60,466 bases of DNA, filler included, from 6 parts of 6 records of this genome joined end to end with filler, not necessarily neighbours in it, one strand, 5' to 3'; shown: positions 30,871 to 58,250, numbered from the whole stretch's first letter. Notes: generated from the sequence alone by a model not told the origin. Program-made: numbers and translations.

Positions 30871-30896
30871 AAAAAGACTGCCATTTGGCAGTCTTT
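30871..30896. terminator. Bidirectional intrinsic terminator between folK and upp
   Basis: AAAGACTGCC-ATTT-GGCAGTCTTT. Confidence 0.8.
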
Positions 30897-30918
30897 AATA
30901 TATAATTTGGATTATTTT

Positions 30919-31575: not shown

Positions 31576-31673
31576 GTTATTGTATCATTTAAAAATTAGC
31601 TGAGCGCAAATATAGCCATATTTCAAGAATATTAAAGCAGTAAATAAGGAAAAAAATAAAAAGCTAATTGATT

Positions 31674-32369: not shown

Positions 32370-32442
32370 AATTATTTGTGCAAATACTTAATTAAAGTTA
32401 TGAATTTGCTTAAACAATACAAATATGAAATAGGTACATGCC

Positions 32443-32470
32443 AAAAAAGGGTCCTCAAATGAGAACCCTT
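32443..32470 (-). terminator. Intrinsic terminator after rpsT
   Basis: AAAAAAGGGTCCTC-AAAT-GAGAACCCTTT. Confidence 0.65.
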
Positions 32471-32490
32471 TATAACAGAGTTATAGTGTC

Positions 32491-32742
32491 TTAAAGCTTG
32501 TTAACGTGTGAAGCTAATTTAGATTTCAAGTTAGCAGCTTTGTTCTTATGAATCACATTGATTTTTGCAAGCTTATCTAACATTGCAGTAACCTGTGGAA
32601 GTAATTCATTAGCAGCTTCCTTATCTGAAGTAGCACGTAACTTTCTTACAGCATTTCTAGCAGTCTTAGCAAAATACTTATTGTGTACTCTTTTCTTTTC
32701 AGACTGTCTAATTCTTTTAATTGCAGATTGATGATTTGCCAT
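32491..32742 (-). CDS. rpsT: 30S ribosomal protein S20
   Basis: [13 protein letters not shown]...[13 protein letters not shown]. Confidence 0.97.
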
Positions 32743-32769
32743 CTCTTAAAGTTATCTAAATTATTATCT

Positions 32770-32844
32770 TGGTAGTCCGTACGGGAATCGAACCCGTGTT
32801 ACCAGAATGAAAATCTGGCGTCCTAACCCCTAGACGAACGGACC
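32770..32844 (-). tRNA. tRNA-Glu(TTC)
   Basis: Reverse complement GGTCCGTTCGTCTAGGGGTTAGGACGCCAGATTTTCATTCTGGTAACACGGGTTCGATTCCCGTACGGACTACCA; full cloverleaf, anticodon TTC, encoded CCA. Confidence 0.96.
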
Positions 32845-32944
32845 NNNNNNNNNNNNNNNNNNNNNNNNNNNNNNNNNNNNNNNNNNNNTTAATTAATTAA
32901 NNNNNNNNNNNNNNNNNNNNNNNNNNNNNNNNNNNNNNNNNNNN
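32845..32944. other. Artificial contig spacer
   Basis: N44-TTAATTAATTAA-N44. Confidence 0.99.
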
Positions 32945-41733: not shown

Positions 41734-42477
41734 GTGAAACAAATTTTAACCTTTTGCCTGGTATCTACCATTTATTTTACCTGCTGGGGTTTAACAGACG
41801 GTTGTTGCCAAAGCAGCTCTACGATCCGGGGAACTGTGAAAGCCATTAAACCAACACCAGTCTTGAGTCCTGAAATCACAATATTGAAACAGGCGGATGA
41901 TGGAAACATCATTGAAAAAAAATTTACTGCGGTTTTCTTACAGAACGACACCGGATGTGTTGACTGGAATGCCCCTGAAAACCGTTTAAAGGCGTTGGTG
42001 TTCAACCTTTTGCCGGGCAATGTGGTTGAAATAAGTTATGCGCGTCAAAATGGGAGGCAGGAAATTAAAACAATCAGGCTTTTGTCCCTTTCCTCAACAA
42101 CGCTTTTTCCGGGATACGAAAAAGTAAAACATGGGCAGTTGCTAACGGATCTTCAGATGCCGGAACCCAAAAAACCTGTGATTGTTTTACTCAAGGGGCA
42201 TGAAAAACTATCATCCCGCATGAAAATGAAAGACAAGCGCCAGTCAGTCATTAAGGAGATCAAGGTGCTTCAGAACAAAGTGCTTGGGGCAATTTCCAAA
42301 GAGGCGTTTACCCCGGGTCTGATTTTGACAAATGTTCCTGTGATTTCAGGAGATGCCACCCTTGAAGGCATTAGGGTTTTGGCTGGGAATCCGCTTGTGG
42401 AAACCATTGAATCTGATATGCCGATGGAGCTTCATGGTGATGGTGTCAAGTCCATGCAGATGGGAGGAGAAAAATGA
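41734..42477 (+). CDS. Exported protein with a C-terminal stand-alone subtilase propeptide (inhibitor I9-like) domain
   Basis: N-terminal hydrophobic signal. VIVLLKG..LQNKVL..NVPVISG..GIRVLAG.PLVETIESDMPMELH aligns with the prodomain of the next gene. RBS AAGGAGG, GTG start. Confidence 0.7.
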   Translation: MKQILTFCLVSTIYFTCWGLTDGCCQSSSTIRGTVKAIKPTPVLSPEITILKQADDGNIIEKKFTAVFLQNDTGCVDWNAPENRLKALVFNLLPGNVVEISYARQNGRQEIKTIRLLSLSSTTLFPGYEKVKHGQLLTDLQMPEPKKPVIVLLKGHEKLSSRMKMKDKRQSVIKEIKVLQNKVLGAISKEAFTPGLILTNVPVISGDATLEGIRVLAGNPLVETIESDMPMELHGDGVKSMQMGGEK

Positions 42478-44078: not shown

Positions 44079-45053
44079 ATGGAAAAATCGTTTCAAATTC
44101 TGTTTATGACAGCCATGGTCATGTTGAGTCTGACGGCATACACGGTCACCGCTTTTGCAGATGTAAAAGCTATCGGTATCCGCTCCGGCGGCGGCAGCAG
44201 CGGCGGCGGAAATGGTGACGGCAATCCGTTAAAAGTGGAATTTACCCCGGTCAAACAGGTCTTTAAAACCGGTGAGGCCATCCGTTTTAAAGTCAGGGGA
44301 TCTGAAACATTTTACCTGTATCTTTTCAGCGTGGATGAAAGAAATAATAAAGGGTATATGATTCTGCCCAACAAAAAACAGCAGTATATTAAATATAAAG
44401 CCGGAACAACTTATACCGTACCGGAAAAATATATTGAATTTTACAGTGATTCCCCAGGCCGGGAAAAAATTATCATGCTGGCCAGCACCAAACGAATGGA
44501 TGTGAAATTTGACAGGTATGCCAAGGTCGGCAATCTTCTCTCTGCCAATTTTGACACGGTTGTTCAGGAAACCAAGGCGCTTGGCATCCGCTCCCGCCAG
44601 GCTAAAGCCAAACATGTTACCAAAGAATTGTCCCTGATAATAACAGGAAATGGACAACACGCAGGTGTTGTGCCTCCCAGTCATCGTGGCAGTGATCCGG
44701 CAGCAGCACCGTTTGTTTCTACAAACAAATCTTCGTACCGGGTTGGAGATGCCATCCGTATCACCTTTGGTGCCGATAAATCCGGATATGTACATCTTTA
44801 TATCAACGAACCCGGTGGCCGCCAATCCTTTCTGACTACAAAAAAGGTTTCCGGCAGGGACTTTTACCAGGTGAACGCCACGGCTTCCAGGCCCGGCGGG
44901 GTCCATCAGATTATCGCCGTGTATGACAATAACGCCACCCCGGATAAACACCGGATCTATACGCTTGCAACCAAACAGATGTCCAAGGATATTCGCCTGG
45001 CCCCTGATACGCCGGATGCCTACGCCGTTTATGACTTCATTATTGAGGAGTAA
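44079..45053 (+). CDS. Secreted tandem DUF4384-domain protein
   Basis: Signal ending AFA; FKTGEAIRF..YLYLFSVD..ILPN..YTVP..PGREKI and YRVGDAIRITF..GYVHLY..PGGVHQI. Confidence 0.78.
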   Translation: MEKSFQILFMTAMVMLSLTAYTVTAFADVKAIGIRSGGGSSGGGNGDGNPLKVEFTPVKQVFKTGEAIRFKVRGSETFYLYLFSVDERNNKGYMILPNKKQQYIKYKAGTTYTVPEKYIEFYSDSPGREKIIMLASTKRMDVKFDRYAKVGNLLSANFDTVVQETKALGIRSRQAKAKHVTKELSLIITGNGQHAGVVPPSHRGSDPAAAPFVSTNKSSYRVGDAIRITFGADKSGYVHLYINEPGGRQSFLTTKKVSGRDFYQVNATASRPGGVHQIIAVYDNNATPDKHRIYTLATKQMSKDIRLAPDTPDAYAVYDFIIEE

Positions 45054-45060
45054 AATAATC

Positions 45061-45576
45061 ATGAGAGCTTCAATTCTGCTTACCGGCCTGCTCATCAGTG
45101 TGGCCCTGTTATCCGGCGGGTGCAAAAACACAGACTATGTTCATGTCGGACCTAACTGGAAAGCCCTTCACGACATGGAGCCTGAAAAAAATGCATTTTC
45201 AGTCACCGTGAAAGGCACCCGTGAAGCCCCACTGGGAAAAGCGCTTTCTTATACGGTTTATTCCGGCGAAACCGGAAAGCTTTGGGTCGTGCAGGTGGAT
45301 CCTGATGATAAGGTTTCCGTTATTGTCCCCAATGCTGAAATGCAGGACCATCAAATTCTAAAAAATGTTCCCCTGCATATTCCACCCCAAGGTGCCCACT
45401 GGGAAATGGCTGCCATGGAGCCTGTGGGAAAAAGTGTGCTCGGTTTTTTTGTGACAACAGGGGATGAAGATATCAGTGCTATCCTGTCCCAGGGACAAGG
45501 AACATCCAAGGCGATCCATGTAAGACCGGTCTCTGAATGGGGCATGGATAAAATGGTCGTGGATATCAAACCATAA
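45061..45576 (+). CDS. DUF4384-domain lipoprotein
   Basis: Lipobox LSGGC; GKLWVVQVDPDDKVSVIVPN..HIPP..EPVGKS; start at ATG 45061. Confidence 0.75.
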   Translation: MRASILLTGLLISVALLSGGCKNTDYVHVGPNWKALHDMEPEKNAFSVTVKGTREAPLGKALSYTVYSGETGKLWVVQVDPDDKVSVIVPNAEMQDHQILKNVPLHIPPQGAHWEMAAMEPVGKSVLGFFVTTGDEDISAILSQGQGTSKAIHVRPVSEWGMDKMVVDIKP

Positions 45577-45583
45577 ACCGCTA

Positions 45584-45605
45584 AAAGGCGCCAAAAGGCG
45601 CCTTT
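45584..45605 (+). terminator. Intra-cluster stem-loop (partial terminator or RNA stabiliser)
   Basis: AAAGGCGCC-AAAA-GGCGCCTTT between the DUF4384 genes and the first caspase gene. Confidence 0.6.
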
Positions 45606-45640
45606 ATTCATATTGCTTCAAAAAGGACAGGAGATAGGAA

Positions 45641-47026
45641 ATGAAAGGTCACTCTTATTGCACACAGCGGGGAATATTTTTTATTCTGGTTTGCTTATTG
45701 TTAAGTGCCTGGCCGGCCTTTGCAGAGAACCGGGCATTGATCATTGGGGTGGGAAAATATCAGATATCATCGGGCAATCTGCCGGGTATTGAAAAAGATG
45801 TTGAAATGGCCAAGAAGATCGCACAGGCAATTGGATTCAAATCCAGCCAGATCAAGGTGCTCAGGGATGAGCAGGCCACCCTTGACAATATCGGCAGTAC
45901 GATCAGCAGCTGGTTGATTCAAGGCACCACCAAAAACGACCGGGTTTTCTTTTATTTCAGTGGGCACGGTTCACATGTTCTTGACACCGACAGGGATGAA
46001 AAAGACAATGCCGATGAGGTCCTGCTGCCCCATGATACACAAATTAAAGGTAAAACCTTAAAAAATGTTTTTTTAGATGATGTGTTCGGTAAAATGCTGG
46101 CAAAAATTCCTGCCAGGGAAAGTTTTGTATTTATCGATGCCTGCCACAGCGGTACCAGTACCAAGTCTTTTGGCAGTTCCGATCAAAAAGCCAAATTCTT
46201 TATATACCCTGGAATGCCTCGCCTGGTCGGAAAAGCCAACTTTTCCACCCAGCCCAGGCGCCGGGCCATAACCCGGGAGCGGTTTGCCTCTTTGAGTGCT
46301 TGTCAGGATGATGAAACGGCCATTGCCACACGGGACGGCAGCCTGTTTACCCGGGGATTGTATGATGCCATCACTAAATCCAATGGGAAACCGGTTTCCC
46401 TCAAATTGTTGAAAAAAAGTACCACGGCTTATATTGCCGCCCATGCATCGCCTGACAAGGTCCACCACCCGGATTTGGCGGGCAGTAAAAAACTTCAAAG
46501 AAAAGATATTCATGTTACCAGTGCCGTATCATCACCCTCGGAATCCAGCCTTTGGGATCGGGTGATGTTGCTGACCGAAGGAGCGGACTATAAAGTACCG
46601 GTTCGTACCAGCCAGTCCAAGTTTAAGGAAGGGGACCTGCTGAAAATTTCACTGACCATGCCCCATGACGGATATGTCAATGTGGTGAATTTAAGCCCGA
46701 ATGACACGAAATCGACGATATTGTTTCCCAATGGATATCATAAGAAAAATTTCTTCAAGGCCGGCACCCGGATTACAATTCCGGGTAAAGATGACGACTT
46801 TAATTTGCCGGCATCTCCGCCTTTTGGAAAAACCCTGATCGCAGTGTTTGTGACCACACAGGAAATTAATTCATATAAAAAAGGGCTTGGGAATTCGGGG
46901 GATCTGATCAAACTCATGTCCAGTGAAACCGCCGGGGAATTTGATGCGGTCAGAGGTAGTTTTTCCGTTCAGGCAAAATCCGTAGGGCTGGGCGCAGGCA
47001 GGGTGATCGCTTTAGTTGAACCGTAA
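45641..47026 (+). CDS. Secreted caspase-like peptidase C14 + DUF4384
   Basis: Signal ending AFA; RALIIGVGKY, LPGIEKD, FSGHG (H109), DACHSG (C168), SLFTRGL; C-terminal DUF4384 (FKEGD..GYVNV..LFPN..PPFG). Confidence 0.9.
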   Translation: MKGHSYCTQRGIFFILVCLLLSAWPAFAENRALIIGVGKYQISSGNLPGIEKDVEMAKKIAQAIGFKSSQIKVLRDEQATLDNIGSTISSWLIQGTTKNDRVFFYFSGHGSHVLDTDRDEKDNADEVLLPHDTQIKGKTLKNVFLDDVFGKMLAKIPARESFVFIDACHSGTSTKSFGSSDQKAKFFIYPGMPRLVGKANFSTQPRRRAITRERFASLSACQDDETAIATRDGSLFTRGLYDAITKSNGKPVSLKLLKKSTTAYIAAHASPDKVHHPDLAGSKKLQRKDIHVTSAVSSPSESSLWDRVMLLTEGADYKVPVRTSQSKFKEGDLLKISLTMPHDGYVNVVNLSPNDTKSTILFPNGYHKKNFFKAGTRITIPGKDDDFNLPASPPFGKTLIAVFVTTQEINSYKKGLGNSGDLIKLMSSETAGEFDAVRGSFSVQAKSVGLGAGRVIALVEP

Positions 47027-47067
47027 TGTCCATGAACGATACCTCACCATCAAGGAGACAAAAAAAA

Positions 47068-48966
47068 ATGAAAACAATGATCCGACTGATTGGGCTTAGC
47101 CTGCTGGCACTCAGCATTACCCTCCCTTCTTTGGCAATGGCTGCCGATAAAAAAGCGATGCCAACCGGCATGTTTGAGCTGTATGCCATGAACGAAAAAG
47201 ACAACATCGGCAACTACATCACCGAAGACTTCATTCTTACGGCCTATGCCATGATGGTTAACCAAAGTATTACGGATATGGAACAGGCCGTGGTCATGCC
47301 GGCGTTTAAGACTCTGTTGACTGCCATGGTTCAGCATTTGAAAAATAACCCGCCCTCCAAATTGCCGGTGGATGTTGCAGCCCATAAAGCCAACCTTAAT
47401 TATCTGAGCGTGGTCAAAGCCCTGGCATTTGGTCACACAAAAATCAAGGACGCCCCGGACGGTGACACCGCCAATGGGGAACTTTCTGCCGTGATGGGTG
47501 CCAAAGGGATTGCCGTATCCCCATTGGTGCAGCAAAAGATTGACTACACCCAATTCAAGGTTCGGGGTAAATATACCCGTACTGCTGAACTGAAGAACTA
47601 TTTTCGGGCGATGCGGTACAGCAGCACTGTATTATTCCCGGTGCTTTCATCCAAAGCGACAGGTATTACGGAAAAGCAGGCGGATTTTCTGACTGCCCAG
47701 GCCCGTGCCCTGGCTGAGCTGATTCAAAATCAGCCGAAAATCAAACAGCAATATGACAGTATCAACGAAAAATTATCCTTTTTGTTCGGGCCGCCCGATG
47801 ATTTGACCGTTGGCGACTATATAAAGGTCTCTTCTGCCGTATCCCCTGAAACCAAGCTCCCGGCCCTGAGGAAAAAATTGGCTGAGTTTGCTGGAAAGCA
47901 CAGCAAACAGCCCCGGATTATTGCCGGTATCGTGAACCAGTCTGCTTTGAAAAAAGAAAAGCGCAGCGCATCGGAAGTTATGACCGGATTTCGGTTAATG
48001 CCCCTGCGGTTCACCCCGGACAGCGCGGCCTTACAGGAATTATGCTACAGCCGCCTGTCCGGCGATTACCAGGGTAAGGATAAAAAACAGCCTCCTTTTT
48101 CCATGGTCCTGGCTGGCGGCCGCCCGGTTAAAGGATTCCCCCTGACCCTTGAGCTGATGGCTCTGTCCGGGTCAAAGGCCGCTGAGACGATCCTGGCCGG
48201 TTCCGGCGACCAGGCATACAAGGGGTATGATGTGGCATTCAAAAAGGCGAAAGCCGGTCTTGACCAGGGCAACGGTCTGGCCGCAGATCACCTGGCACTG
48301 ATTGCCTACTGGCTGAAAAGAGGTCAGGATATCCAGGTAAACAATGATCCTGCCAGGCGCCTGAACACCAGTCTGGGGTTTTATACCTGGCACCGGTATA
48401 TCAATATCCTGTATGCCAAACAATCTTACAGTGCAGTGGCTAAAAGTCTTTTGATATCACAGTCCCGCAGCACTGCATGGATTGAACCGGCACCTGAACT
48501 CTATCTTCTTTTGAAAAATCAGGTGGGCAAGCTGAGCAAGCACTTTGCAGATCCCCGGTATACCCGCAGGATGAGTACGTTTGCCGGACTGCTTGAACGC
48601 TGTCATGACATTGCCCGCAATATTGTTCTTGGAAAATCCCTGTCTGCGGCTGATACAGGCTTTTTAAATACCTTGGATCAGGCGTTTAAAAAATTATTGC
48701 CTGGTGAAGACCATCCCATTGTTGTGGATATCCACACGGATGCCAATTCCGGCAAGGTGCTGGAACAGGCCCTGGGATATCCTCAAATCGTTGAGCACGA
48801 TACCGGGAAGGGCCGAACACGGGGCGCACTATTCACCCATTATGAATTTAAACAGGACATGGATAAACGGTTGACGGACAGGGAATGGCAGCTGATTCTC
48901 ACTGCTGACCCGAAATTGGCTAACTTTCAGATGGCACCGGGTCCCGATTCGGGTACAAAACCATAG
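47068..48966 (+). CDS. Secreted DUF3160-family protein
   Basis: Signal ending AMA; YITEDFIL, DYTQFKVRGKYT..YFRAM, FRLMPLRFTPDS, ILYAKQ, VVDIHTD, YEF..RLTDREW. ATG 47068 after AAGGAG. Confidence 0.8.
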   Translation: MKTMIRLIGLSLLALSITLPSLAMAADKKAMPTGMFELYAMNEKDNIGNYITEDFILTAYAMMVNQSITDMEQAVVMPAFKTLLTAMVQHLKNNPPSKLPVDVAAHKANLNYLSVVKALAFGHTKIKDAPDGDTANGELSAVMGAKGIAVSPLVQQKIDYTQFKVRGKYTRTAELKNYFRAMRYSSTVLFPVLSSKATGITEKQADFLTAQARALAELIQNQPKIKQQYDSINEKLSFLFGPPDDLTVGDYIKVSSAVSPETKLPALRKKLAEFAGKHSKQPRIIAGIVNQSALKKEKRSASEVMTGFRLMPLRFTPDSAALQELCYSRLSGDYQGKDKKQPPFSMVLAGGRPVKGFPLTLELMALSGSKAAETILAGSGDQAYKGYDVAFKKAKAGLDQGNGLAADHLALIAYWLKRGQDIQVNNDPARRLNTSLGFYTWHRYINILYAKQSYSAVAKSLLISQSRSTAWIEPAPELYLLLKNQVGKLSKHFADPRYTRRMSTFAGLLERCHDIARNIVLGKSLSAADTGFLNTLDQAFKKLLPGEDHPIVVDIHTDANSGKVLEQALGYPQIVEHDTGKGRTRGALFTHYEFKQDMDKRLTDREWQLILTADPKLANFQMAPGPDSGTKP

Positions 48967-48979
48967 GGGGAAAAATAAA

Positions 48980-49861
48980 ATGAAGAAAGCCTATTTCGTT
49001 TTAATGGCTTTAGTGGCATTGGCATTGTGCTGGGTTGCAGTTGTTCCGCCCGTTGCAGCAAGCCAGGGATGTCAACAGGCAAAACACCTTTATGATTTGG
49101 CAATAGGCCATTCCGACAATCAGGAAAAAATTCGGCTTCTGGAGGAAGTTGCCGATGTATGCCCCGATTTTAATACCTATTTCCAATTGGGAAAAGCATT
49201 TGAAAAAGAAAAAAAGTATAACGAAGCGCGGATGGCTTACAAGGATGCGCAGTTGACAACAGAAGAAGAAAGGCTGCAGGCCAATGCTTTGATCATGATC
49301 GGGGGAACTTATGAAACGCAAGGGTCAATGCAGGCGGCGATCCGGCATTACCGGCAGGCACAGATGGTTCATGAGAATCCTAAAGTTGAGGCTCATTTGC
49401 AAAAACTTGTCCTGTCTCTGGCAGGAGAATATGTTTCCCAGGATGATATAACCCGGGCATTGACGGAATCCACAAGATCCCTCAGGGGGTTTTCCGTTGC
49501 TCCCAAGATTGATCTTTACATTAACTTTGACCTGGACAGCCATGCACTTTCCAGCCACGATGCGCAACAACAGGCTGAGGCACTTGGCCGTGCCTTGATG
49601 GACAAAAGCCTGAAAGGCAGGCACATTCATATTGTCGGGCATACGGACAGCCAGGGTGATGCATCCTATAATATGTCACTGTCAATGAAACGGGCCCAAA
49701 GTGTGAAACGGTTTTTGATCGGACAATTTCCCGCTTTAACATCCCATTTGTCCCTCACAACCCAAGGAAAAGGCGAGACCGGCCTGCTGATTTCTCCGGA
49801 AGTCACACAGCGGCATTTCGCTGCCAACCGCCGGGTAGAGGTCGTGCTGCAATACAAATAA
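48980..49861 (+). CDS. Secreted TPR + OmpA-C (peptidoglycan-binding) protein
   Basis: Signal peptide; TPR-like helices; INFDLDS, IVGHTDSQG..YNMSLSMKRA, GKGE, NRRVE. Confidence 0.88.
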   Translation: MKKAYFVLMALVALALCWVAVVPPVAASQGCQQAKHLYDLAIGHSDNQEKIRLLEEVADVCPDFNTYFQLGKAFEKEKKYNEARMAYKDAQLTTEEERLQANALIMIGGTYETQGSMQAAIRHYRQAQMVHENPKVEAHLQKLVLSLAGEYVSQDDITRALTESTRSLRGFSVAPKIDLYINFDLDSHALSSHDAQQQAEALGRALMDKSLKGRHIHIVGHTDSQGDASYNMSLSMKRAQSVKRFLIGQFPALTSHLSLTTQGKGETGLLISPEVTQRHFAANRRVEVVLQYK

Positions 49862-49890
49862 TACTACGGATAGGAGGCCTGATCATAAAT

Positions 49891-51609
49891 ATGACTTCTC
49901 AAAAAAAAAGCAGGTTCATGGGTGTGTGCGTTGGCCTGGTGCTGTGCCTGACCGTTATTTTCCCGGCCTGGGCAGCCCATCATGCCCTGCTCATTGGCGT
50001 AGGCGAATATCCGGGCCTGCCGCCGAAAGCGCAGTTGGAGGGCCCGGTGTATGATGTGGCAGCTTTGAAAGAGCTGCTGATCGCCGAGCTGAAATTTGAG
50101 CCGGGTAATATTGTAACGCTCACCGATGCCCAGGCCACTAAAGACGGGATACTGACTGCCCTGGATAACCTGCATAAAACGACATCACCCGATGATTTTG
50201 TATTTATTTATTTCAGTGGACATGGCACAAGCCCCCAGGACAAGGGGGCCCGGAAAATGAAAATAGATGATATGGGCACGCCTTACACCGGTGCCGTTTT
50301 GCCTTTTGATTTTTCCATTGAGGGCAGTGCAGCCCAAATAATGGGCAGGCTGATCATCGGTAGCCGGGATATCCGGCCACGTATAGAGCGCTTGGATAAA
50401 GACCGGCGGATCTTCGGCGTGTTTGATGCCTGTTATTCTGAAAATGCTTTCCGCAGCCTTGATGTGCCAAAAACACGGCATGTGATCATACCCTGGGACC
50501 GCGCAACAAGAAGTATCGGGGATTCATTGATCGACGATACCCCGTCGGAGACCAAGCAGACACCGGCCCCGGTTTCTGCACCAAGCCCTTATAAAAACAC
50601 GGTATTTTTATCGGCAGCATCCAAAGGAGAACCGGCAAATGACATGGTTCAACGTGATATGCCCCACAGGTATACTACCTTTGACGGCAATTCCCATGGT
50701 GCATTGAGCAATGCCTTGCTCATTGGTTTAAACGGGGCCGCAGATCTGGATGGCAACGGTAAAATTACTTATCGGGAACTGCACAAAAACGTTCGACTTA
50801 AAGTGGAACAAGATTTCCATCACACCCCCCGGCTTCTGGTGCCGGAAAACCGGCCCTCCATGAAAGATGACATGGTTTTTCACGCCAAACGGGGCGGACA
50901 AATCCGACCGAATCCACCACTCCCTGCAGGTCCGCTGAAAGTCACGGCCAAGGGAAGTGCAAAGCGGTTTCTCTCCGCTATCGCGGACATTCCCGGAGTC
51001 AAACTGGGTACGGAAAACGATTTTGACCTGATGATAAAGGCCGCACCGGCCGGTGCGGGCAACAATAGTGACACAGAAAAATTTGAATTGTATCTGTCCA
51101 ACGGGGGAATGCTGGCTGAACTGCCTAAATCTAAAGTCCTGGAAAGGATCAAGGCCCAGGTCAAAGTCAAAACACTGCTGGAAAAAACATGGCCAAATTC
51201 CGGATCTAACGTGTTTCTTGAAATTCTTGGCAAGCAGGGGATACTGTTTGAAGGGGATTCTCTTGGATTCTCCATTGAGACCCAGTCTGATGCCTATATT
51301 CTGCTTATCAATATTGACCATGCCGGTAACATTAACGTGGTTTATCCCTATGATGAGTCGGAAACGGTCATCGTTAAAAAGGGACAAGGGCTCCATATGC
51401 CGGGTGTTTGCCGGGTAACCGGGGAATTTTTGGGCACGGAATACTTAAAGGTGTTTGCCTTCCCGGCCCTGCCTGCAGAAATTTCAACACTGATGGGTGA
51501 ATCTTTTTCCCCTGAAGATCCATTGTTTAATACCCTTTTGACCATGCTCAACCAACAAAAAAAGGGCGTGACCACTACAAGGATGCTGAAAACGGAAAGA
51601 CGGCAATAA
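49891..51609 (+). CDS. Secreted caspase-like peptidase C14 + DUF4384
   Basis: Signal ending AWA; HALLIGVGEY, LEGPVYD, FSGHG (H111), DACYS (C181), EF-hand-like DLDGNGKITYREL; C-terminal DUF4384. Confidence 0.88.
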   Translation: MTSQKKSRFMGVCVGLVLCLTVIFPAWAAHHALLIGVGEYPGLPPKAQLEGPVYDVAALKELLIAELKFEPGNIVTLTDAQATKDGILTALDNLHKTTSPDDFVFIYFSGHGTSPQDKGARKMKIDDMGTPYTGAVLPFDFSIEGSAAQIMGRLIIGSRDIRPRIERLDKDRRIFGVFDACYSENAFRSLDVPKTRHVIIPWDRATRSIGDSLIDDTPSETKQTPAPVSAPSPYKNTVFLSAASKGEPANDMVQRDMPHRYTTFDGNSHGALSNALLIGLNGAADLDGNGKITYRELHKNVRLKVEQDFHHTPRLLVPENRPSMKDDMVFHAKRGGQIRPNPPLPAGPLKVTAKGSAKRFLSAIADIPGVKLGTENDFDLMIKAAPAGAGNNSDTEKFELYLSNGGMLAELPKSKVLERIKAQVKVKTLLEKTWPNSGSNVFLEILGKQGILFEGDSLGFSIETQSDAYILLINIDHAGNINVVYPYDESETVIVKKGQGLHMPGVCRVTGEFLGTEYLKVFAFPALPAEISTLMGESFSPEDPLFNTLLTMLNQQKKGVTTTRMLKTERRQ

Positions 51610-51619
51610 GGAAGCTACA

Positions 51620-54490
51620 ATGAAAAATAAATTCTCAGTACAATGTTGTGTTCTGTTTTTGATGTTCTGGGTGATGGGAGGGGCCGCTGCCGCCCCAAGC
51701 CGCCCGCCATCAACCGAACCCATTCTCCGGCTTGGAACAAAAATGCATTTTTCTACGATAAGGCGGATCAGTAGTGATGCTTCAGGCCGGTATATTCTCA
51801 CCTGCAGCGAGGATAAAACGGCAAGGCTCTGGGACGGGGAAACCGGTGATCTTGTCAGAATTTTAAGAGTTCCGTTAGAAAAAGGAAAGGAGGGCAAACT
51901 GCGTGCCTGTGCCCTTTCTCCTGACGGAAACATTGCGGCTGTGGGAGGGTTTACAGGTTACAAGTATTCGGGAAAAATCGTCATCTATCTTTTTAGTACA
52001 CTCACAGGTGAAATGATCCAAAGGCTGACGGGTATGGAAGGTGTCGTTTGTGACATCGAATTTTATTCCAATCATTTATTTGCTGCAGCCCTTGGCGGAA
52101 AAACCGGCATCCGGGTATTTAAAAAAACCGGAACCCGTTTTGTTCAGCATCACAAAGATACAGACTATGGCGGACCAACTTTAAATTTGGCTTTTGGTAC
52201 AGATGGCCGGCTGGCATCTGTTGCCTTTGACGGTTATATCCGCCTTTATGATGCTGAATTCAACCTTATAAAAAAGAAGAAGGCAACGGGCGGGAAAAAG
52301 CCCTATTCACTTACTTTTTCTCCGGATAATACCAAACTGGCAGTTGGATATGGTGATACCGCTGCCCTGGAAGTACTGGACACGGGCAACCTTGACGTCC
52401 TCTACCGGCCCGATAATAAGGGTGCCGATACCCCGGGCCTGCAGTTGAACAAGTTAAGCTTCGGGACGGACGGGTGCCTCTACGGAGGCGGGCTCTATGA
52501 TCAATCCATTGAAGGCAGGCAGTGGTTTTTAATTCGCAAATGGGCTGATTATGGCCGGGGAAAGTTTTTGGATTTTAAAGCCGCCGGCAATACGGTTATG
52601 GATATTAAGGCATTTGGAAACGGGCTTGTTATGATGGCCGGCAGCCGGCCGGATATGGCTTTGTTTACAGCGTCCGGAGACAGGGTGTTTTATAAAACCG
52701 GCGAAGTGATGGATTTTGGGCATAAAGACCGGTTTGAATTTTTTACAGTGAGCCGGGATGGCGGCCGGATTACATTTAAACCCACGGGGGCTGATCCGCT
52801 TACCTTCAGCATTGCCGACAGGGCACTGAAACCATTTTCCAAAAAATTTGACTCTTCCCGGGATAGCCGCGCGGGGCTTAATATTACAGACTGGAAAAAT
52901 ACGGATTGCCCAAAACTCAACGGCTGTCCATTGGATTTTCTGGATCGATATGAGACCTGTCGAAGTATAGATATCGGAGCGGATGGCACTCTTCTGGTGG
53001 GTGCCGCCTGGTCAATTTATGCGCTGGACAAAACAGGAAATCAAAAATGGAGAGCACAGGTCCCCGGCGAAGCCTGGGCCGTTAAGATTGCCCCGGATAA
53101 TAAAGTCGCTGTGGCAGTTCATGACGGGGGGGAAATCCGTTGGTACAGGATGAAAGACGGTGCACTGCTTTTGTCCCTGTTTGTCCATCCGGACAGAAAA
53201 AGATGGATTCTGTCTACCCCCCAAGGGTATTATGATTCTTCCCCCGGAGCAGATTCCCTTATGGGCTGGCATATTAACAAGGGTCCGGAACAGGCTGCAT
53301 CTTTTTATCCCATGTCCCGTTTTCGGTCATCATATTACCGGCCGGATGTTTTGGCTAAAGTGATTGAGTACGGTGACGGTGGAAAAGCGCTGGAGGCAGC
53401 GGACAAGGGCAAGAAAAAAAAGCCGTTATCCATTGTGAAAATGGTACCGCCGGAAGTGGTCATTGTTTCCCCTGAAAATAATGCTGTGGTTTCTTCGGAT
53501 ACAATCCGTGTCAAATACCGGGTCAACACGCCTTCAGGGGAAGCAGTCACTGGAATTAAAGTGATGGTGGACGGACGGCCTCTGGACCGTCAGCGGGGAA
53601 TTAAGCGGGTAAAAAAAGGAGATGTTGTTGAAGTTAATGTTCCGGTGCCGCCCCGGGATAGTACGCTGTCTATTATCGCCGAAAACCGGTATGCTGCAAG
53701 TGAACCGACAAAAGTCAGGTTGAAGTGGAGCGGGCCTGACAAGTTCATTCTCAAACCCAAACTCTATGTTCTGGCCATGGGCAGTTCCTTGTACGACGAT
53801 GAGGACCTTCAACTGGATTTTCCGGCAAAAGACGCCCAGGATTTTGCTGCTGTGTTAAGACAGCAAAAAGGGGGCATTTATAGGGATGTGGAAGTGAATT
53901 TGCTTGATAATCCCTCAAGGGATGATATTTTAGATGGTTTGGATTGGATTGAAAGGCAGACCACAGATCTTGATGTGGCAGCAGTGTTTCTGGCCGGCCA
54001 TGGGGTGAATGACAGAAATGGAAAATACTACTACCTGCCCATTGACACGGATCGTGATAGAATCAAACGGACCGGGATATCTTATTCAGCCATCAAAGAC
54101 ACGATCACCGGACTGGCCGGCAAGGTGCTTTTTTTTATCGACACCTGCCATTCCGGTAATGTGATGGGAGCGCGGCGTGGTGATACAGGTGATCTGAATC
54201 AGGTTGCAAATGACCTGTCCTCTGCTGAAAACGGGGTTGTGGTCTTTACCTCTTCCTCAGGGACCCAGTATTCACTGGAAAATCATTCTTGGGGCAACGG
54301 GGCATTTACCAAAGCTGTGGTCGAAGGATTGTCCGGGAAGGCCGATTACCATCGGGACAATAAAATATCCATCAATGAACTGAAATTGTTTGTGGCTGAG
54401 CGGGTTAAAGAACTGACCCGGGGGCAGCAGACCCCCACAACCTGTCAGCCTGAAACAATTACCGATTTTCCCATTGTGTTGATACAATAA
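51620..54490 (+). CDS. Secreted WD40 beta-propeller + Ig-like + caspase-like peptidase C14
   Basis: Signal peptide; WD40 repeats (TCSEDKTARLWD, SVAFDGYIRLYD, GEIRWY); TPQGYYDSSPG; PPEVVIVSP Ig-like domain; LAGHG (H794), DTCHSG (C843), GAFTKA, GQQTP. Confidence 0.9.
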   Translation: MKNKFSVQCCVLFLMFWVMGGAAAAPSRPPSTEPILRLGTKMHFSTIRRISSDASGRYILTCSEDKTARLWDGETGDLVRILRVPLEKGKEGKLRACALSPDGNIAAVGGFTGYKYSGKIVIYLFSTLTGEMIQRLTGMEGVVCDIEFYSNHLFAAALGGKTGIRVFKKTGTRFVQHHKDTDYGGPTLNLAFGTDGRLASVAFDGYIRLYDAEFNLIKKKKATGGKKPYSLTFSPDNTKLAVGYGDTAALEVLDTGNLDVLYRPDNKGADTPGLQLNKLSFGTDGCLYGGGLYDQSIEGRQWFLIRKWADYGRGKFLDFKAAGNTVMDIKAFGNGLVMMAGSRPDMALFTASGDRVFYKTGEVMDFGHKDRFEFFTVSRDGGRITFKPTGADPLTFSIADRALKPFSKKFDSSRDSRAGLNITDWKNTDCPKLNGCPLDFLDRYETCRSIDIGADGTLLVGAAWSIYALDKTGNQKWRAQVPGEAWAVKIAPDNKVAVAVHDGGEIRWYRMKDGALLLSLFVHPDRKRWILSTPQGYYDSSPGADSLMGWHINKGPEQAASFYPMSRFRSSYYRPDVLAKVIEYGDGGKALEAADKGKKKKPLSIVKMVPPEVVIVSPENNAVVSSDTIRVKYRVNTPSGEAVTGIKVMVDGRPLDRQRGIKRVKKGDVVEVNVPVPPRDSTLSIIAENRYAASEPTKVRLKWSGPDKFILKPKLYVLAMGSSLYDDEDLQLDFPAKDAQDFAAVLRQQKGGIYRDVEVNLLDNPSRDDILDGLDWIERQTTDLDVAAVFLAGHGVNDRNGKYYYLPIDTDRDRIKRTGISYSAIKDTITGLAGKVLFFIDTCHSGNVMGARRGDTGDLNQVANDLSSAENGVVVFTSSSGTQYSLENHSWGNGAFTKAVVEGLSGKADYHRDNKISINELKLFVAERVKELTRGQQTPTTCQPETITDFPIVLIQ

Positions 54491-54499
54491 GGAGTTCTA

Positions 54500-55414
54500 A
54501 TGAAAAAAGTAATTTTTTTTAACGTTTTTTTGTACGGTTTTATTTCATTGTTGATTCTGTCTGGCTGCATGATGCCGCAGGGAACAATTGAGCCTGTGCA
54601 GGGTGATCAGTGTGCGCAAAATCTGTATAAATTACAATCGTATGACAAATCAAATGCAGTGACCTCTTCTGCGATGTCCTGGACAAAATGTATAGCAGAA
54701 TGCGAGCTTAAAGCTTTTCTGACAGGTGGGGAAGAAGACTGCAAAGCCAAGTGTAACAGTCAGGTCGATACAAAAAAAATAGTTAACAACTTTATTTCAA
54801 CTTCGGAAGAAGAACAAATGCGACTGAGGCAGATCAACCTTGAAATTGACCGCCTTCAGCAGTGCCGGAATCAGGAATCCAGACTGATACTTGCGGGATT
54901 AAAAAGCAAAAATTCCGTTAGAAGAAAAAATGCCCGGGCCGACTACAAAGTTTTCGTGGAAAAAGTCCAAAATGACAACCGTCTATTAGACAAACTTTTA
55001 GCTGCATCCGGAGAGCGCATCTCTGAACATGAAAAGACAATGACAGAACTCAATAAAATGAATGATGATTCGGGCATTAATGTACGTGCAGGATACAATA
55101 TACGCAGTGCACCATCTACAAAAACCGGTCAAATTATCGGAAAAACAGGCTCAAGGGCAACAATCAGGCAGGTCCAAGGCAGATGGGTCTGTATCGACTA
55201 TCTTTCGCATGAAAAGGCATATGTCCATATCAAAGCGTTTCCCTCTCTTTCTCCTGGCAGCCAAACAGCGCCCGGCAAGAAAAATAATGCAGCAGCCCAT
55301 GAAGCTCATGTCGCGACCCAAAGACAACATGCTGAATCTGTTGAAAAAAAATCCGATTATGCCAGCGGTATGGATCTTCGTTTGTCTGAACTGGATGAAG
55401 CGAGCATTTCCTAA
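54500..55414 (+). CDS. Lipoprotein with Cys-rich segment, coiled coil and SH3b-like domain
   Basis: Lipobox ILSGC; CIAEC..CKAKC; NIRSAPSTKTGQIIG..GRWVCI. Confidence 0.7.
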   Translation: MKKVIFFNVFLYGFISLLILSGCMMPQGTIEPVQGDQCAQNLYKLQSYDKSNAVTSSAMSWTKCIAECELKAFLTGGEEDCKAKCNSQVDTKKIVNNFISTSEEEQMRLRQINLEIDRLQQCRNQESRLILAGLKSKNSVRRKNARADYKVFVEKVQNDNRLLDKLLAASGERISEHEKTMTELNKMNDDSGINVRAGYNIRSAPSTKTGQIIGKTGSRATIRQVQGRWVCIDYLSHEKAYVHIKAFPSLSPGSQTAPGKKNNAAAHEAHVATQRQHAESVEKKSDYASGMDLRLSELDEASIS

Positions 55415-55437
55415 ACATATATAGGAAGGAAGAAAAG

Positions 55438-56055
55438 ATGAAAAAAAAGTCTATTTGTTTGGGTTGGCTGTGGATCTGCGTATTTTTTTTAGCCGGTCAT
55501 GGTGTTTGGGCAAGTGAAAAAATGGTCAAGGCCAAAATTGGAATTGAGATTTTTACGGGTCAAGATATTCAACGTGCAAAATCCAGGGATACGTTAAAAC
55601 CGGGGGATAAAATTCGCATTTACGTCCATACCCGGGAAAGTGCCAATGTCTATGTGGTGTCCACTGACAAGAAAAAAGCCATTCTGCTCAATATGACCAA
55701 TCCAAAAATCGGTGAGCCCACGTTTGTATGTCTGCCGTCTGCCGATGCCTACTACAAAGTGGACGGTATCTCGCCTGTTGAACGGTTGATCATTTTGTGC
55801 AGCCAGGAAAAAATACCTGAAATCTCTAAAATGACCGACTCGGGAATACCATGGAGCCAATGGGTTGACATAGAAGCCAGGCTTTCCAATCAAAGCACTG
55901 TTTCTTTAACCCAGTCTTTAAAACCGACCATTGAAATCGCTGGAAATACCAAGGGGTTGGATGGTGCTGTTGCTAAAGACGATTTTGTAGATACGCTTCC
56001 CACCTATTCGGGCAAAGGACTGCTGACAAAAATATATGAGTTCAAAATTCAATAG
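55438..56055 (+). CDS. Secreted DUF4384-like protein
   Basis: Signal ending VWA; LKPGDKIRIYV..ANVYVV..LPS..YKVD..ERLIIL. Confidence 0.68.
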   Translation: MKKKSICLGWLWICVFFLAGHGVWASEKMVKAKIGIEIFTGQDIQRAKSRDTLKPGDKIRIYVHTRESANVYVVSTDKKKAILLNMTNPKIGEPTFVCLPSADAYYKVDGISPVERLIILCSQEKIPEISKMTDSGIPWSQWVDIEARLSNQSTVSLTQSLKPTIEIAGNTKGLDGAVAKDDFVDTLPTYSGKGLLTKIYEFKIQ

Positions 56056-58198: not shown

Positions 58199-58225
58199 CG
58201 GCTATGGCCGTTCGTTATTTTTTTG
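58193..58225 (+). terminator. Possible terminator or stem-loop between cyclase and HD-GYP genes
   Basis: AACGGC-TATG-GCCGTT (alternatively AAATAACG/CGTTATTT) followed by a T run. Confidence 0.45.
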
Positions 58226-58250
58226 TTTTTTAAAATTTATAAGGTGTTTC

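What the first reader, a model, noticed from the sequence alone, without database searches (positions are those of the whole stretch)
44163..55965. Recurrent x-[K/R]-[A/G/S/D]-hydrophobic motif across the cluster: a putative shared caspase cleavage site
Seen: VKAIGI (44163), TKALGI (44571) and SKDIRL (44982) in the tandem DUF4384 protein; SKAIHV (45505); TKSFG (46160) and looser VRGSFSV (46949) in caspase 1; AKSLLI (48439) in DUF3160; TRSLRGFSV (49472) just before the OmpA domain; FRSLDV (50449) and TRSIG (50506) in caspase 2; QRGIKRV (53591) in caspase 3; TKGLDG (55948). Most lie in apparent linkers or loops of otherwise unrelated proteins. Known: metacaspases and orthocaspases cut after Arg/Lys using an acidic S1 pocket, and all three enzymes keep the relevant Asp residues (L.G/F...D and DxC). 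Inference: the cluster encodes its own substrates, and cleavage exposes a common small-hydrophobic neo-N-terminus that may act as a docking or activating peptide. The motif is short, so some matches could be chance.
Basis: partly seen in the sequence, partly recalled or inferred. Interest (0 to 1): 0.85.

Follow-up and report, generated by a model that had tools for sequence, protein, structure and literature searches.

The report
Shared Lys/Arg motif beside bacterial caspases
A short lysine/arginine-small-hydrophobic motif is conserved in flexible stretches of several exported proteins encoded beside three bacterial caspase-like proteases, which makes them testable candidate substrates, but cleavage itself is not shown.

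Summary
All 12 strings are at the stated coordinates. By raw count the loose motif is barely above chance (50 seen, 41.5±6.0 in shuffles; 1.26 vs 0.87 per 100 aa in the rest of the window). Position tells more. In orthologues 30-50% identical, 10 of 12 sites keep [KR]-[GAS(D)]-hydrophobic, one (TKGLDG) keeps only [KR]-G, and one (TRSIG) is not kept. The motifs are islands of conservation in indel-rich stretches that AlphaFold2 mostly leaves at low confidence. In the tandem-DUF4384 family the three copies co-vary within a protein, and three members carry Glu in place of Lys at all three copies at once. I found no compensating change inside the protein. One outside factor therefore seems to read them. 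The co-encoded Arg/Lys-type C14 peptidases are the best candidate (confidence 0.45), but cleavage is untested. Against this, Lys is strongly preferred over Arg in some families, the motif persists in genomes with no detected C14, and there are structural alternatives. Half the sites flank paralogous DUF4384 modules, so the proteins are not all unrelated. Earlier notes of this scan reported a similar shared motif in other genomes.

The parts
41734..42477 (+). A: exported 247-aa protein with no Pfam hit. Residues 122-234 copy the N-terminal pro-region of the S8 protease next door.
   Evidence: no family; 37% identity over 118 aa to B residues 24-138, E 1e-14; orthologues travel with B in L001, L037, L045 and L047
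42474..43937 (+). B: exported subtilase (Peptidase_S8)
   Evidence: PF00082, 128 bits
44079..45053 (+). C: exported tandem-DUF4384 protein (324 aa) with three motif copies
44163..44186 (+). C site 1, VKAIGIRS (K30). It lies just after the signal peptide and before a Gly-rich, indel-rich linker.
   Evidence: K in 75 of 105, hydrophobic at +2 and +4; pLDDT below 50 for residues 21-39; conservation island
44571..44594 (+). C site 2, TKALGIRS (K166), between the two DUF4384 modules
   Evidence: K 90 and R 4 of 105; modelled inside helix 158-174 at pLDDT about 90; co-varies with site 1
44982..45005 (+). C site 3, SKDIRLAP (K303), about 12 residues before the last beta-strand
   Evidence: K 92 and R 2 of 105; G, D, A or S at +1 in 97 of 105; pLDDT below 50 for residues 301-305
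45061..45576 (+). D: DUF4384 lipoprotein (171 aa, with a lipobox-like LSGC read by eye). The motif SKAIHVRP is at 45505-45528.
   Evidence: K in 11 of 11 orthologues
45641..47026 (+). E: exported C14 peptidase + DUF4384 (461 aa)
46160..46177 (+). E site TKSFGS. K175 lies seven residues after the catalytic Cys168.
   Evidence: K 59 and R 54 of 113; Thr at -1 in 102; S, G or A at +1 in 84; hydrophobic at +2; block 171-180 has mean pLDDT 59
46949..46969 (+). E site VRGSFSV (R438), after the DUF4384 core and before the last strand. The window has one extra Ser compared with the family pattern R-G-F-x-V.
   Evidence: R 94 and K 10 of 113; residues 439-446 below pLDDT 50; flanks 60-87% gaps
47026..48966 (+). 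F: exported DUF3160 protein of a divergent, cluster-linked subfamily. The motif AKSLLI is at 48439-48456, in a variable loop.
   Evidence: K in 12 of 12 cluster-type orthologues; only 4 of 25 canonical DUF3160 proteins have a [KR][SG]-hydrophobic there
48980..49861 (+). G: exported TPR + OmpA-like protein. The conserved motif LRGFSV is at 49481-49498, in the TPR-OmpA linker.
   Evidence: [RK] in 10 of 10 (6 R, 4 K); homology to solved OmpA-like domains starts at residue 176-181
49891..51609 (+). H: exported C14 peptidase + divergent DUF4384. The motif FRSLDV is at 50449-50466 (R188 = Cys+7). TRSIG at 50506-50520 is not conserved.
   Evidence: R in 10 of 10; TRSIG falls in an indel region
51620..54490 (+). 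I: exported WD40 + Ig-like + C14 peptidase. QRGIKRV is at 53591-53611. A conserved R-R-G follows the catalytic Cys843 at 54170-54187.
   Evidence: R659 in 112 of 121; R852 in 119, R853 in 114 and G854 in 108 of 121
54500..55414 (+). J: 304-aa lipoprotein-like protein (weak SH3_3 hit).
   Evidence: E 0.0039, below cut-off; 2 loose matches
55438..56055 (+). K: exported DUF4384-like protein. It carries TKGLDG at 55948-65, VKAKIGI at 55525-45 and SGKGLL at 56008-25.
   Evidence: 17.4 bits, below cut-off; [RK]-G in 12 of 12 but the next residue varies; K193 in 11 of 12; N-terminal [KR]-A-[KR]-I-G-I
56036..58198 (+). L: CHASE2-adenylate/guanylate cyclase. It is next in the same orientation and is a possible output of the system (inference only).
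58251..59945 (+). M: GAF + HD-GYP-type (HD_5) protein

Best explanation
The window carries a conserved, fully exported gene module: a tandem-DUF4384 protein, a small DUF4384 lipoprotein, two C14 caspase-like peptidases fused to DUF4384, a DUF3160 protein and a TPR-OmpA protein. In this genome the module also has a WD40-C14 peptidase, an S8 protease with a free pro-domain copy, and a CHASE2 cyclase.

A short linear motif, [K/R]-[G/A/S/D]-hydrophobic-x-hydrophobic, sits in flexible, indel-rich stretches of these proteins. It lies on one or both sides of DUF4384 modules, just ahead of the module's last beta-strand. It also lies in a variable loop of DUF3160, in the TPR-OmpA linker, and a few residues after the catalytic Cys of each peptidase.

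My reading is that these are recognition sites for the co-encoded Arg/Lys-specific C14 peptidases, with the basic residue entering the acidic S1 pocket. They would act as processing sites or uncleaved pseudosubstrate locks.

Shown: the motif's positions, its conservation, its low-confidence context, and the co-variation of its copies.

For: (1) Conservation at 10 of 12 sites in orthologues of 30-50% identity, against 0-4 for 13 control patterns.

(2) The motif columns carry 2.2-3.5 bits, while the flanks carry 0.4-1.0 bits and many gaps. AF2 confidence is low at C sites 1 and 3 and at both E sites.

(3) K and R interchange freely where expected for a basic-P1 site: E Cys+7 is K 59 / R 54 of 113, and G is 6 R / 4 K.

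(4) Copies in one protein co-vary. Site 1 vs site 2 identity is 0.387 against 0.259 +/- 0.010 with shuffled partners (0 of 5000 shuffles reach it). The largest excess among 120 control segment pairs was 0.025.

(5) Three of 105 family members have Glu at all three copies and a fourth has Glu at two. Column shuffles expect 0.0155 such rows (0 of 20000 reach 3). The rest of the motif is kept.

(6) The module is conserved. In 6 of 8 metagenome loci scanned, a C-like gene is followed directly by a caspase-DUF4384 gene. DUF4384 and C14 co-occur in genomes: 70 of 88 DUF4384 genomes have C14, against 60 of 313 others (odds ratio 16), not corrected for phylogeny.

(7) The motif is not needed for the DUF4384 fold. 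72 of the 130 Pfam hits examined lack it (9 of 30 and 63 of 100), and 21 of 25 canonical DUF3160 lack it in that loop.

(8) The S1-pocket Asp residues and the catalytic dyad are kept.

(9) Precedent: Lys225 of the AtMC4 linker sits in the acidic pocket and is then cut, with recognition mainly through main-chain beta pairing (10.1101/2020.03.09.983940, abstract and passages).

(10) All cluster proteins begin with a signal-peptide-like or lipobox-like N-terminus. This is read by eye, with no predictor run.
Against: - No cleavage evidence of any kind exists. The complex prediction never ran.
- Lys is strongly preferred over Arg in C (K 90 / R 4 and K 92 / R 2 of 105), D (11 of 11) and F (12 of 12). 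A plain K/R-specific protease would not impose this.
- Conservation lies mostly on the prime side (+1, +2, +4). As far as I recall, caspase-family enzymes read mainly the non-prime side.
- The motif follows DUF4384 in 6 of 8 loci from genomes with no C14 hit. The four canonical DUF3160 proteins with the loop motif come from three genomes with no C14 hit. Genome completeness is unknown in both cases.
- A motif-less DUF4384 subfamily also sits next to C14 genes.
- C site 2 is modelled as a confident helix.
- In 112 E-family rows the Cys+7 motif and the post-DUF4384 motif do not co-vary (0.201 vs 0.213).
- Cys+7 is the position of Asp220 of the TbMCA2 Ca site, which offers a structural reason for a fixed cation there.
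- The raw motif count is only modestly above background.
- The Glu-type rows may stem from a single origin, because the starred branches of the quick tree force only one change.
Confidence: 0.45

Rival explanations
1. The motif is a docking element that is not cut. It would be a short strand that adds onto a sheet or groove of a non-catalytic partner of the cluster: a DUF4384 module of another subunit, the TPR of G, the WD40 of I, or DUF3160. This would assemble the exported proteins into a complex or chain. The basic residue would make a salt bridge with that partner.
For: - The pattern alternates hydrophobic residues at +2 and +4, and conservation is on the prime side.
- Family-specific fixation of K or of R fits a fixed salt-bridge partner better than a K/R protease.
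- The motif flanks DUF4384 on both sides, and the two flanks resemble each other within a protein.
- The motif is kept in DUF4384 proteins of genomes with no C14 hit.
- The motif is at low AF2 confidence in the monomer, as expected for an element ordered only on binding.
Against: - No compensating charge change was found within the C protein for the K-to-E switch, so DUF4384 of the same protein is an unlikely receptor.
- The free K/R mixing at E Cys+7 and in G is not explained.
- No partner is identified and no complex was predicted.
- The strong genomic tie to C14 peptidases would then be only indirect.
Confidence: 0.3
2. There is no common function. The instances are separate, ordinary features that happen to fit a short degenerate pattern. 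Possible cases are a strand or turn belonging to an extended DUF4384 module in some subfamilies, a built-in cation at Cys+7 replacing the metacaspase Ca-site Asp, the lead-in to the first OmpA strand, and a loop of DUF3160.
For: - The raw frequency is near chance.
- Two of the 8 conserved matches are plainly structural: E R31 (RALIIG) and F K369 (KGFP), the latter shared by canonical DUF3160.
- Cys+7 equals TbMCA2 Asp220 of the Ca site, while the acidic cluster D115...E126 is kept in E.
- The caspase-internal and DUF4384 sites do not co-vary.
- C site 2 is modelled as a helix.
- In 100 lower-scoring DUF4384 hits, 37 have the motif against 24.9 +/- 4.3 expected.
Against: - 8 conserved instances against a mean of 1.4 for control patterns.
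- The instances are conservation islands inside indel-rich, low-confidence stretches.
- The three copies switch K to E in concert, and copies co-vary within proteins well beyond control segments.
- The F loop motif is specific to the cluster-linked subfamily: 12 of 12 against 4 of 25.
Confidence: 0.2

Closest known systems
Type II metacaspase AtMC4 and its self-inhibitory linker (Lys225; PDB 6W8R/6W8S/6W8T)
   Same: Both are C14 fold enzymes with an acidic pocket. In AtMC4 a Lys in a flexible linker is held in the S1 pocket through main-chain beta pairing and is then cut (10.1101/2020.03.09.983940, abstract and passages). The E model matches AtMC4 and AtMC9 chains by Foldseek (E 1e-11 to 4e-14).
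   Different: Here the candidate sites lie mainly on separate, co-encoded proteins and on the DUF4384 appendage. The peptidase-internal site is only 7 residues (E, H) or 9-10 residues (I) after the Cys, not in a long p20-p10 linker. At Cys+7 these enzymes have K/R where Ca-dependent metacaspases have Asp. The system is exported and bacterial.
Bacterial/cyanobacterial orthocaspases with accessory domains (for example MaOC1; C14 + DUF4384, WD40, FGE-sulfatase, CHASE2)
   Same: The Peptidase_C14 p20-like domain has the His-Cys dyad, and the literature reports specificity for basic residues. DUF4384, WD40 and FGE-sulfatase are listed among orthocaspase accessory domains; DUF4384 is found in 23 proteins (PMC8283722 table; PMC7475262 passages).
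   Different: The passages I read describe domain architectures only. I saw no flank motif, no dedicated substrates and no conserved multi-gene module with DUF3160 and TPR-OmpA. Natural substrates are not given there.
Type III-E CRISPR 'Craspase': CHAT-family protease Csx29 cutting Csx30
   Same: A caspase-fold protease cuts a dedicated, co-encoded partner in a flexible linker next to its C-terminal domain. [quoted passage not shown]
   Different: That system is cytoplasmic and RNA-guided, and as I recall the cleavage there is not after a basic residue. No CRISPR parts are present here, and everything is exported.
MALT1 paracaspase (caspase domain + Ig3 domain)
   Same: An Arg-specific (recalled) caspase-fold domain is followed by an Ig-like sandwich. 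The whole E model aligns to MALT1 caspase-Ig3 chains over 406-453 columns (TMq 0.36-0.41).
   Different: It is eukaryotic and cytoplasmic. Identity is low (11-13%). There is no evidence that DUF4384 plays the regulatory role of Ig3. This is a resemblance of architecture only.
Alpha-2-macroglobulin bait region
   Same: In both, an Ig/MG-like sandwich carries an exposed protease-sensitive stretch. The C model matches MG-domain proteins among many generic sandwiches. There is a weak A2M_BRD hit (E 0.0035). A bacterial A2M gene lies beside a C-like gene in L041.
   Different: The Pfam hit is below the cut-off, and the TM-scores are 0.33 or less. There is no thioester domain. A bait region is variable by design, whereas this motif is conserved.

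Membership tests
Peptidase C14 (metacaspase/orthocaspase branch) | Match to the Peptidase_C14 profile above the curated cut-off | tested here: met
   E scores 87.8 bits, H 64.5 and I 71.7, against a cut-off of 21.4. The PDB profile search hits metacaspases and GSU0716, and the fold search agrees.
Peptidase C14 (metacaspase/orthocaspase branch) | Catalytic His-Cys dyad | tested here: met
   E H109 and C168 are invariant in 113 rows. I C843 is present in 121 of 121 and H844 in 119 of 121. H has SGHG and DACYS in the sequence.
Peptidase C14 (metacaspase/orthocaspase branch) | Acidic S1-pocket residues equivalent to TbMCA2 Asp95 and Asp211 | tested here: met
   E D53 and D166 are invariant and align with the metacaspase ND and D-S-C. 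I D841 is present in 121 of 121. The Asp two residues before the Cys is present in 10 of 10 H orthologues. The residue roles are taken from PMC4357240 passages. This rests on alignment only.
Peptidase C14 (metacaspase/orthocaspase branch) | Cleavage after Arg/Lys | not testable with these tools
   This needs enzyme assays.
Ca-dependent type I/II metacaspases | Four-Asp allosteric Ca site including the Asp seven residues after the catalytic Cys (TbMCA2 Asp220) | tested here: not met
   Cys+7 is K or R in 113 of 113 E-family rows and R in 10 of 10 H orthologues. The site definition is from PMC4357240. Placing the catalytic Cys at 213 follows from Asp211 lying two residues before it, plus recall.
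DUF4384 (PF14326) | Profile match above the curated cut-off of 27 bits | tested here: met
   C scores 75.9 (two stretches), D 38.7, E 69.1 and H 33.3. K scores 17.4 and does not reach the cut-off; it is called DUF4384-like on architecture only.
DUF3160 (PF11369) | Profile match above the cut-off | tested here: met
   F scores 286 bits over profile positions 22-622. It is much weaker than canonical members of the phylum (390-712 bits), so it belongs to a divergent subfamily.
Protease processing site / short linear motif | A conserved island within a variable, indel-rich, flexible stretch | tested here: met
   One search gives the bit and gap profiles. Searches show low pLDDT at C sites 1 and 3 and at both E sites. 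C site 2 is the exception (helix at pLDDT about 90). F and G were not modelled: the F site lies between conserved blocks in a length-variable loop, and the G site lies between the TPR and OmpA homology regions.
Protease processing site / short linear motif | The scissile bond is actually cut by the proposed enzyme | not testable with these tools
   There are no proteomic or biochemical data. Complex prediction was never accepted because its queue was full.
AtMC4-like self-inhibitory linker | A long p20-p10 linker whose Lys occupies the enzyme's own S1 pocket | tested here: inconclusive
   E has a low-confidence stretch after the Cys (block 171-180 at pLDDT 59, and 199-205 below 50), but the basic residue is only 7 residues from the Cys. 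I could not read model coordinates to see where its side chain points.

The most novel reading that the evidence does not exclude
DUF4384 modules are the dedicated, co-evolving substrates or locks of bacterial caspase homologues. Each module carries a P1-type residue, Lys or Arg, that switches in concert to Glu in some lineages. This residue lies just before the module's last beta-strand. The switch would be predicted to track a change of the partner peptidase's S1 pocket from acidic to basic.

Cleavage would nick the module and free a tethered small-hydrophobic N-terminus. The same tag on DUF3160 and TPR-OmpA proteins would make the cluster an extracytoplasmic proteolytic cascade whose output is read by the neighbouring CHASE2 cyclase.
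Probability: 0.2. Interest if true: 0.85.

Novelty: new variant of a known kind. Interest (0 to 1): 0.62.

Why it matters
The natural substrates and the biological role of bacterial caspase homologues are largely unknown. The passages I read give architectures, basic P1 preference and autoprocessing only.

This cluster offers a concrete hypothesis that can be proved wrong. It names exact residues in at least five co-encoded exported proteins. It names a domain of unknown function (DUF4384) as the likely cognate partner of C14 peptidases. It also makes a computable prediction, that lineages with Glu in the motif should have an altered S1 pocket.

If this holds, it would assign a function to DUF4384 and perhaps DUF3160. 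It would also describe a periplasmic caspase cascade in sulfate reducers and many metagenomic relatives.

If it fails, the motif still defines an unannotated conserved element of several DUF4384 subfamilies.

Tried and rejected
(1) Whole genome of the window: none is held. I used relatives instead.

A 5-row alignment worked.

The calls were 54, 59, 62, 65, 70, 75, 78, 83, 86, 88, 90, 93, 95, 105, 110, 118, 121, 124, 127, 129, 130 and 131, plus none that ran. No result exists either way.

(4) I looked for an intramolecular salt-bridge partner of the motif Lys. The conserved acidic columns stay acidic in the Glu-type rows. Two columns turn basic, the same number as random quadruples give (mean 1.98). 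Rejected as unsupported.

(5) Co-variation between the two E-family sites: none (0.201 vs 0.213).

(6) My interim idea that the motif is a universal part of DUF4384 came from 21 of 30 top loci. It did not hold. Only 37 of the next 100 hits have it, against 24.9 expected.

(7) Fold search of the C model found only generic Ig/MG/transglutaminase-type sandwiches, with TM 0.33 or less.

(8) NCBIfam: no model reached its cut-off for A, C, D, E, F, H, I, J or K.

Two viral-contig scans gave nothing usable.

(10) Literature: 'DUF4384' is held by 7 papers and 'DUF3160' by 1. I read passages of three DUF4384 papers and saw no mention of the motif. I did not read whole texts or supplements.

(11) A MAFFT run with slow settings timed out. 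I repeated it with --auto.

Full report
**What is there**

On the + strand from 41.7 kb to 59.9 kb the window encodes thirteen co-oriented proteins:
- A: no family.
- B: S8 subtilase.
- C: two DUF4384 domains.
- D: DUF4384 lipoprotein.
- E: Peptidase_C14 + DUF4384.
- F: DUF3160.
- G: TPR + OmpA-like.
- H: Peptidase_C14 + DUF4384.
- I: WD40 + Ig-like + Peptidase_C14.
- J: weak SH3_3.
- K: weak DUF4384.
- L: CHASE2 cyclase.
- M: GAF + HD-GYP type.

Proteins A to K all start with a signal-peptide-like or lipobox-like N-terminus. I read this from the sequences, with no predictor. The closest genomes found are Desulfobacter latus and D. curvatus, with orthologues 70-90% identical.

**The observation: presence and raw count**

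All twelve strings are at the stated coordinates. As a bare count the motif is weak:
- [KR][AGSD][ILVFM] occurs 50 times in 3932 aa, against 41.5 +/- 6.0 in shuffles. A fraction of 0.088 of 2000 shuffles reach 50.
- Against the other 36 ORFs of the window it is 1.26 vs 0.87 per 100 aa.

Narrower patterns gave smaller tail fractions. They were chosen after seeing the data, so I do not rely on them.

**Positional conservation**

I collected relatives from several sources:
- 320 relatives of C (105 aligned as A1).
- 1110 relatives of E (113 aligned as A2).
- 120 relatives of I.
- 12 relatives of K (11 of them aligned with the window protein).
- Whole orthologous clusters from twelve metagenome loci and five genome stretches.

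Results by site:

| Site | Residue | Conservation |
|---|---|---|
| C site 1 | K30 | K in 75 of 105 |
| C site 2 | K166 | K 90 + R 4 of 105 |
| C site 3 | K303 | K 92 + R 2 of 105 |
| D | K150 | 11 of 11 |
| F | K473 | 12 of 12 |
| G | R169 | basic in 10 of 10 (6 R, 4 K) |
| H | R188 | 10 of 10 |
| E | K175 | K 59 / R 54 of 113 |
| E | R438 | R 94 / K 10 of 113 |
| I | R659 | R in 112 of 121 |
| K | K172 | [KR]-G in 12 of 12, next residue variable |
| H (TRSIG) | - | falls in an indel region, not kept |

For the three C sites, the +1 position is small (or D) in 66, 79 and 97 rows, and +2 and +4 are hydrophobic.

An R-R-G follows the Cys of I (119, 114 and 108 of 121). K has an N-terminal [KR]-A-[KR]-I-G-I and an S-G-K-G-L-L.

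As a control, I counted columns kept in at least 80% of rows over six orthologue alignments (2467 window residues). The motif order gives 8, and thirteen reordered or recharged patterns give 0-4, mean 1.4. Two of the 8 are plainly fold features. E R31 starts strand 1. F K369 (K-G-F-P) is shared by canonical DUF3160 proteins.

**Context of the sites**

The motif columns carry 2.2-3.5 bits. The flanks carry 0.4-1.0 bits and are often 60-97% gaps.

AlphaFold2 with these alignments gives the following:
- C (mean pLDDT 83.1): residues 21-39 and 301-305 are below 50, but site 2 lies inside helix 158-174 at about 90.
- E (mean pLDDT 88.9): the block 171-180 averages 59, and residues 439-446 are below 50.

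In both models the architecture is DUF4384 core, helix, motif, variable linker, then a last beta-strand that returns to the sandwich.

The F site lies in a length-variable loop between two conserved DUF3160 blocks. All 12 cluster-type F proteins have K-[SG]-hydrophobic there, but only 4 of 25 canonical DUF3160 proteins from the same phylum do. The G site lies between the TPR region and the start of homology to solved OmpA-like domains at residue 176-181. F and G were not modelled.

**The proteins are not all unrelated**

Seven of the twelve strings flank DUF4384 or DUF4384-like modules. A further family of about 300 aa with a single DUF4384 has T-R-G-[IV]-x-[LIV] after the domain in 18 of 18 members. 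The motif is thus a recurrent appendage of several DUF4384 subfamilies.

It is not part of every DUF4384. Among 130 Pfam hits in 401 genomes of the phylum, 21 of the 30 best have the five-position motif within 75-90 aa downstream, and so do 37 of the next 100. Shuffled tails expect 24.9 +/- 4.3, and 3 of 1000 shuffles reach 37. One motif-less subfamily is common and also sits beside C14 genes. The fold therefore does not need the motif.

**Evidence for a common reader**

(i) Motif copies within one protein resemble each other more than copies from different proteins:

| Pair | Within-protein identity | Shuffled partners | Shuffles reaching it |
|---|---|---|---|
| site 1 vs site 2 | 0.387 | 0.259 +/- 0.010 | 0 of 5000 |
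| site 2 vs site 3 | 0.264 | 0.239 | 10 of 5000 |
| site 1 vs site 3 | 0.229 | 0.197 | 2 of 5000 |

In 120 control pairs of non-motif segments the mean excess was 0.004 and the maximum 0.025, with z at most 4.06 against 13 for site 1 vs site 2. The site 1-site 2 signal is clear; the other two are marginal.

(ii) Of 105 rows, 66 are K,K,K at the three sites. Three rows (P0038, P0052, P0061) are E,E,E and P0074 is E,E,K, with the rest of the motif kept. Column shuffles expect 0.0155 E,E,E rows, and 0 of 20000 reach 3 (not corrected for phylogeny). In a quick ML tree P0052 and P0061 are sisters, P0074 sits near them among K-type rows, and P0038 sits elsewhere among K-type rows. Parsimony needs three changes, but the well-supported branches force only one.

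(iii) No conserved acidic residue of C is lost or reversed in the Glu-type rows. The two columns that turn basic are no more than random quadruples give.

Together this suggests that the three copies are read by one lineage-specific factor outside the protein.

A negative result belongs here too. In 112 E-family rows the Cys+7 motif and the post-DUF4384 motif do not co-vary (0.201 vs 0.213).

The C14 peptidases are the best candidate, for these reasons:
- They keep the catalytic dyad and the two pocket Asp residues. The residue roles come from PMC4357240 passages, and the basic specificity of characterised homologues from PMC8283722 passages.
- They are exported together with the motif-bearing proteins.
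- The module C-like, caspase-DUF4384, small DUF4384, DUF3160, TPR-OmpA, caspase-DUF4384 recurs. In 6 of 8 metagenome loci scanned, the C-like gene is followed directly by a caspase-DUF4384 gene.
- In D. curvatus all six DUF4384 hits lie in this one region.
- In 401 genomes, DUF4384 and C14 co-occur in 70. There are 18 genomes with DUF4384 only, 60 with C14 only and 253 with neither, an odds ratio of 16. This is uncorrected for phylogeny, and completeness is unknown.
- AtMC4 gives a precedent for a linker Lys held in the acidic pocket and then cut.

**What speaks against cleavage**

- Lys is almost exclusive in C, D and F.
- Conservation is mainly on the prime side.
- The motif follows DUF4384 in 6 of 8 loci from genomes with no C14 hit.
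- The four canonical DUF3160 proteins with the loop motif come from three genomes with no C14 hit.
- Of five genomes with the 300-aa family, only two have a C14 gene within 5 kb.
- For the peptidase-internal sites there is a structural rival. Cys+7 corresponds to Asp220 of the four-Asp Ca site of TbMCA2, while E keeps the neighbouring acidic cluster. A fixed Lys/Arg could therefore stand in for the metal.

I could not run the one co-folding job because its queue stayed full.

**Verdict**

It is a positionally conserved short linear motif tied to DUF4384 modules and to three other proteins of a conserved exported caspase cluster. The interpretation as a shared cleavage or pseudosubstrate site is the best single explanation (0.45), but it is not shown. 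A non-cleaved docking motif (0.3) and unrelated structural features (0.2) remain open.

In the passages I read from the few papers that mention DUF4384 (7 papers; passages) and in the search listing for DUF3160 (1 paper), I saw no description of this motif.

Earlier notes of this scan report a similar shared Lys motif between DUF4384-type proteins and caspase linkers in other genomes. I treated them as leads only. One of them prompted the P1 co-variation check.

Noticed in passing
window 18000-32900: G+C drops to 0.32-0.39, against 0.44-0.57 on both sides. The stretch encodes housekeeping-type genes (LpxK, HPPK, UPRTase, RadC, SppA-type S49, M24 aminopeptidase, NUDIX) and a protein with a CHU_C type IX secretion sorting domain. 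It ends at a tRNA-Glu at 32770-32844 on the - strand. As I recall, a type IX sorting domain is typical of Bacteroidota, so this may be a foreign island or an assembly chimera within a Desulfobacter-like contig.
   Followed up: partly
window 41734-43937: Protein A residues 122-234 are 37% identical to residues 24-138 of the S8 protease B, its N-terminal pro-region (E 1e-14). The A-B pair travels together in L001, L037, L045 and L047. A may be a free-standing pro-domain-like inhibitor or chaperone of B.
   Followed up: partly
window 46139-46162 (E) and 50428-50451 (H): These C14 peptidases have Lys/Arg at the position seven residues after the catalytic Cys, where Ca-dependent metacaspases have the Ca-site Asp (TbMCA2 Asp220). 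The count is 113 of 113 in the E family and 10 of 10 in H orthologues. This could be a built-in cation replacing Ca2+.
   Followed up: partly
window 48127-48147 (F residues 368-374): [KR]-[GA]-[FY]-P-x-G-L-[DE] is conserved in the 9 cluster-type DUF3160 proteins and in about 10 of the 25 canonical ones; a further group of canonical members has R-x-L-P. It is probably a core functional or structural motif of this family of unknown function.
   Followed up: no
L035, L040, L042, L041 (metagenome loci): Related clusters add other clan-CD or protease-control genes: TPR-CHAT proteins, C14 fused to FGE-sulfatase domains, a C14-PEGA-OpuAC fusion, and a bacterial alpha-2-macroglobulin right beside a C-like gene.
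   Followed up: no
L001, L002, L045 vs window 51620-59945: The part after H is variable among close relatives. D. curvatus has I but a different upstream region, including another caspase-DUF4384 gene on the opposite strand. D. latus and G268 lack I, J and K at this place. The conserved core is C-D-E-F-G-H. The gene order is C-E-D in the metagenome loci and C-D-E in Desulfobacter.
   Followed up: partly
window 44923-45576: The longest ORF for D starts inside C at 44923. The likely true start is the ATG at 45061, which gives a signal peptide with an LSGC lipobox and matches the 170-174-aa orthologues.
   Followed up: partly
A1 alignment column of window C residue 246: The three rows with Glu at site 3 have K, K and R at this loop position of domain 2. 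The E,E,K row has G, and K-type rows are acidic there in 43%. The number of such columns is what chance gives, but this one tracks site 3 exactly and may deserve a look in a larger alignment.
   Followed up: partly
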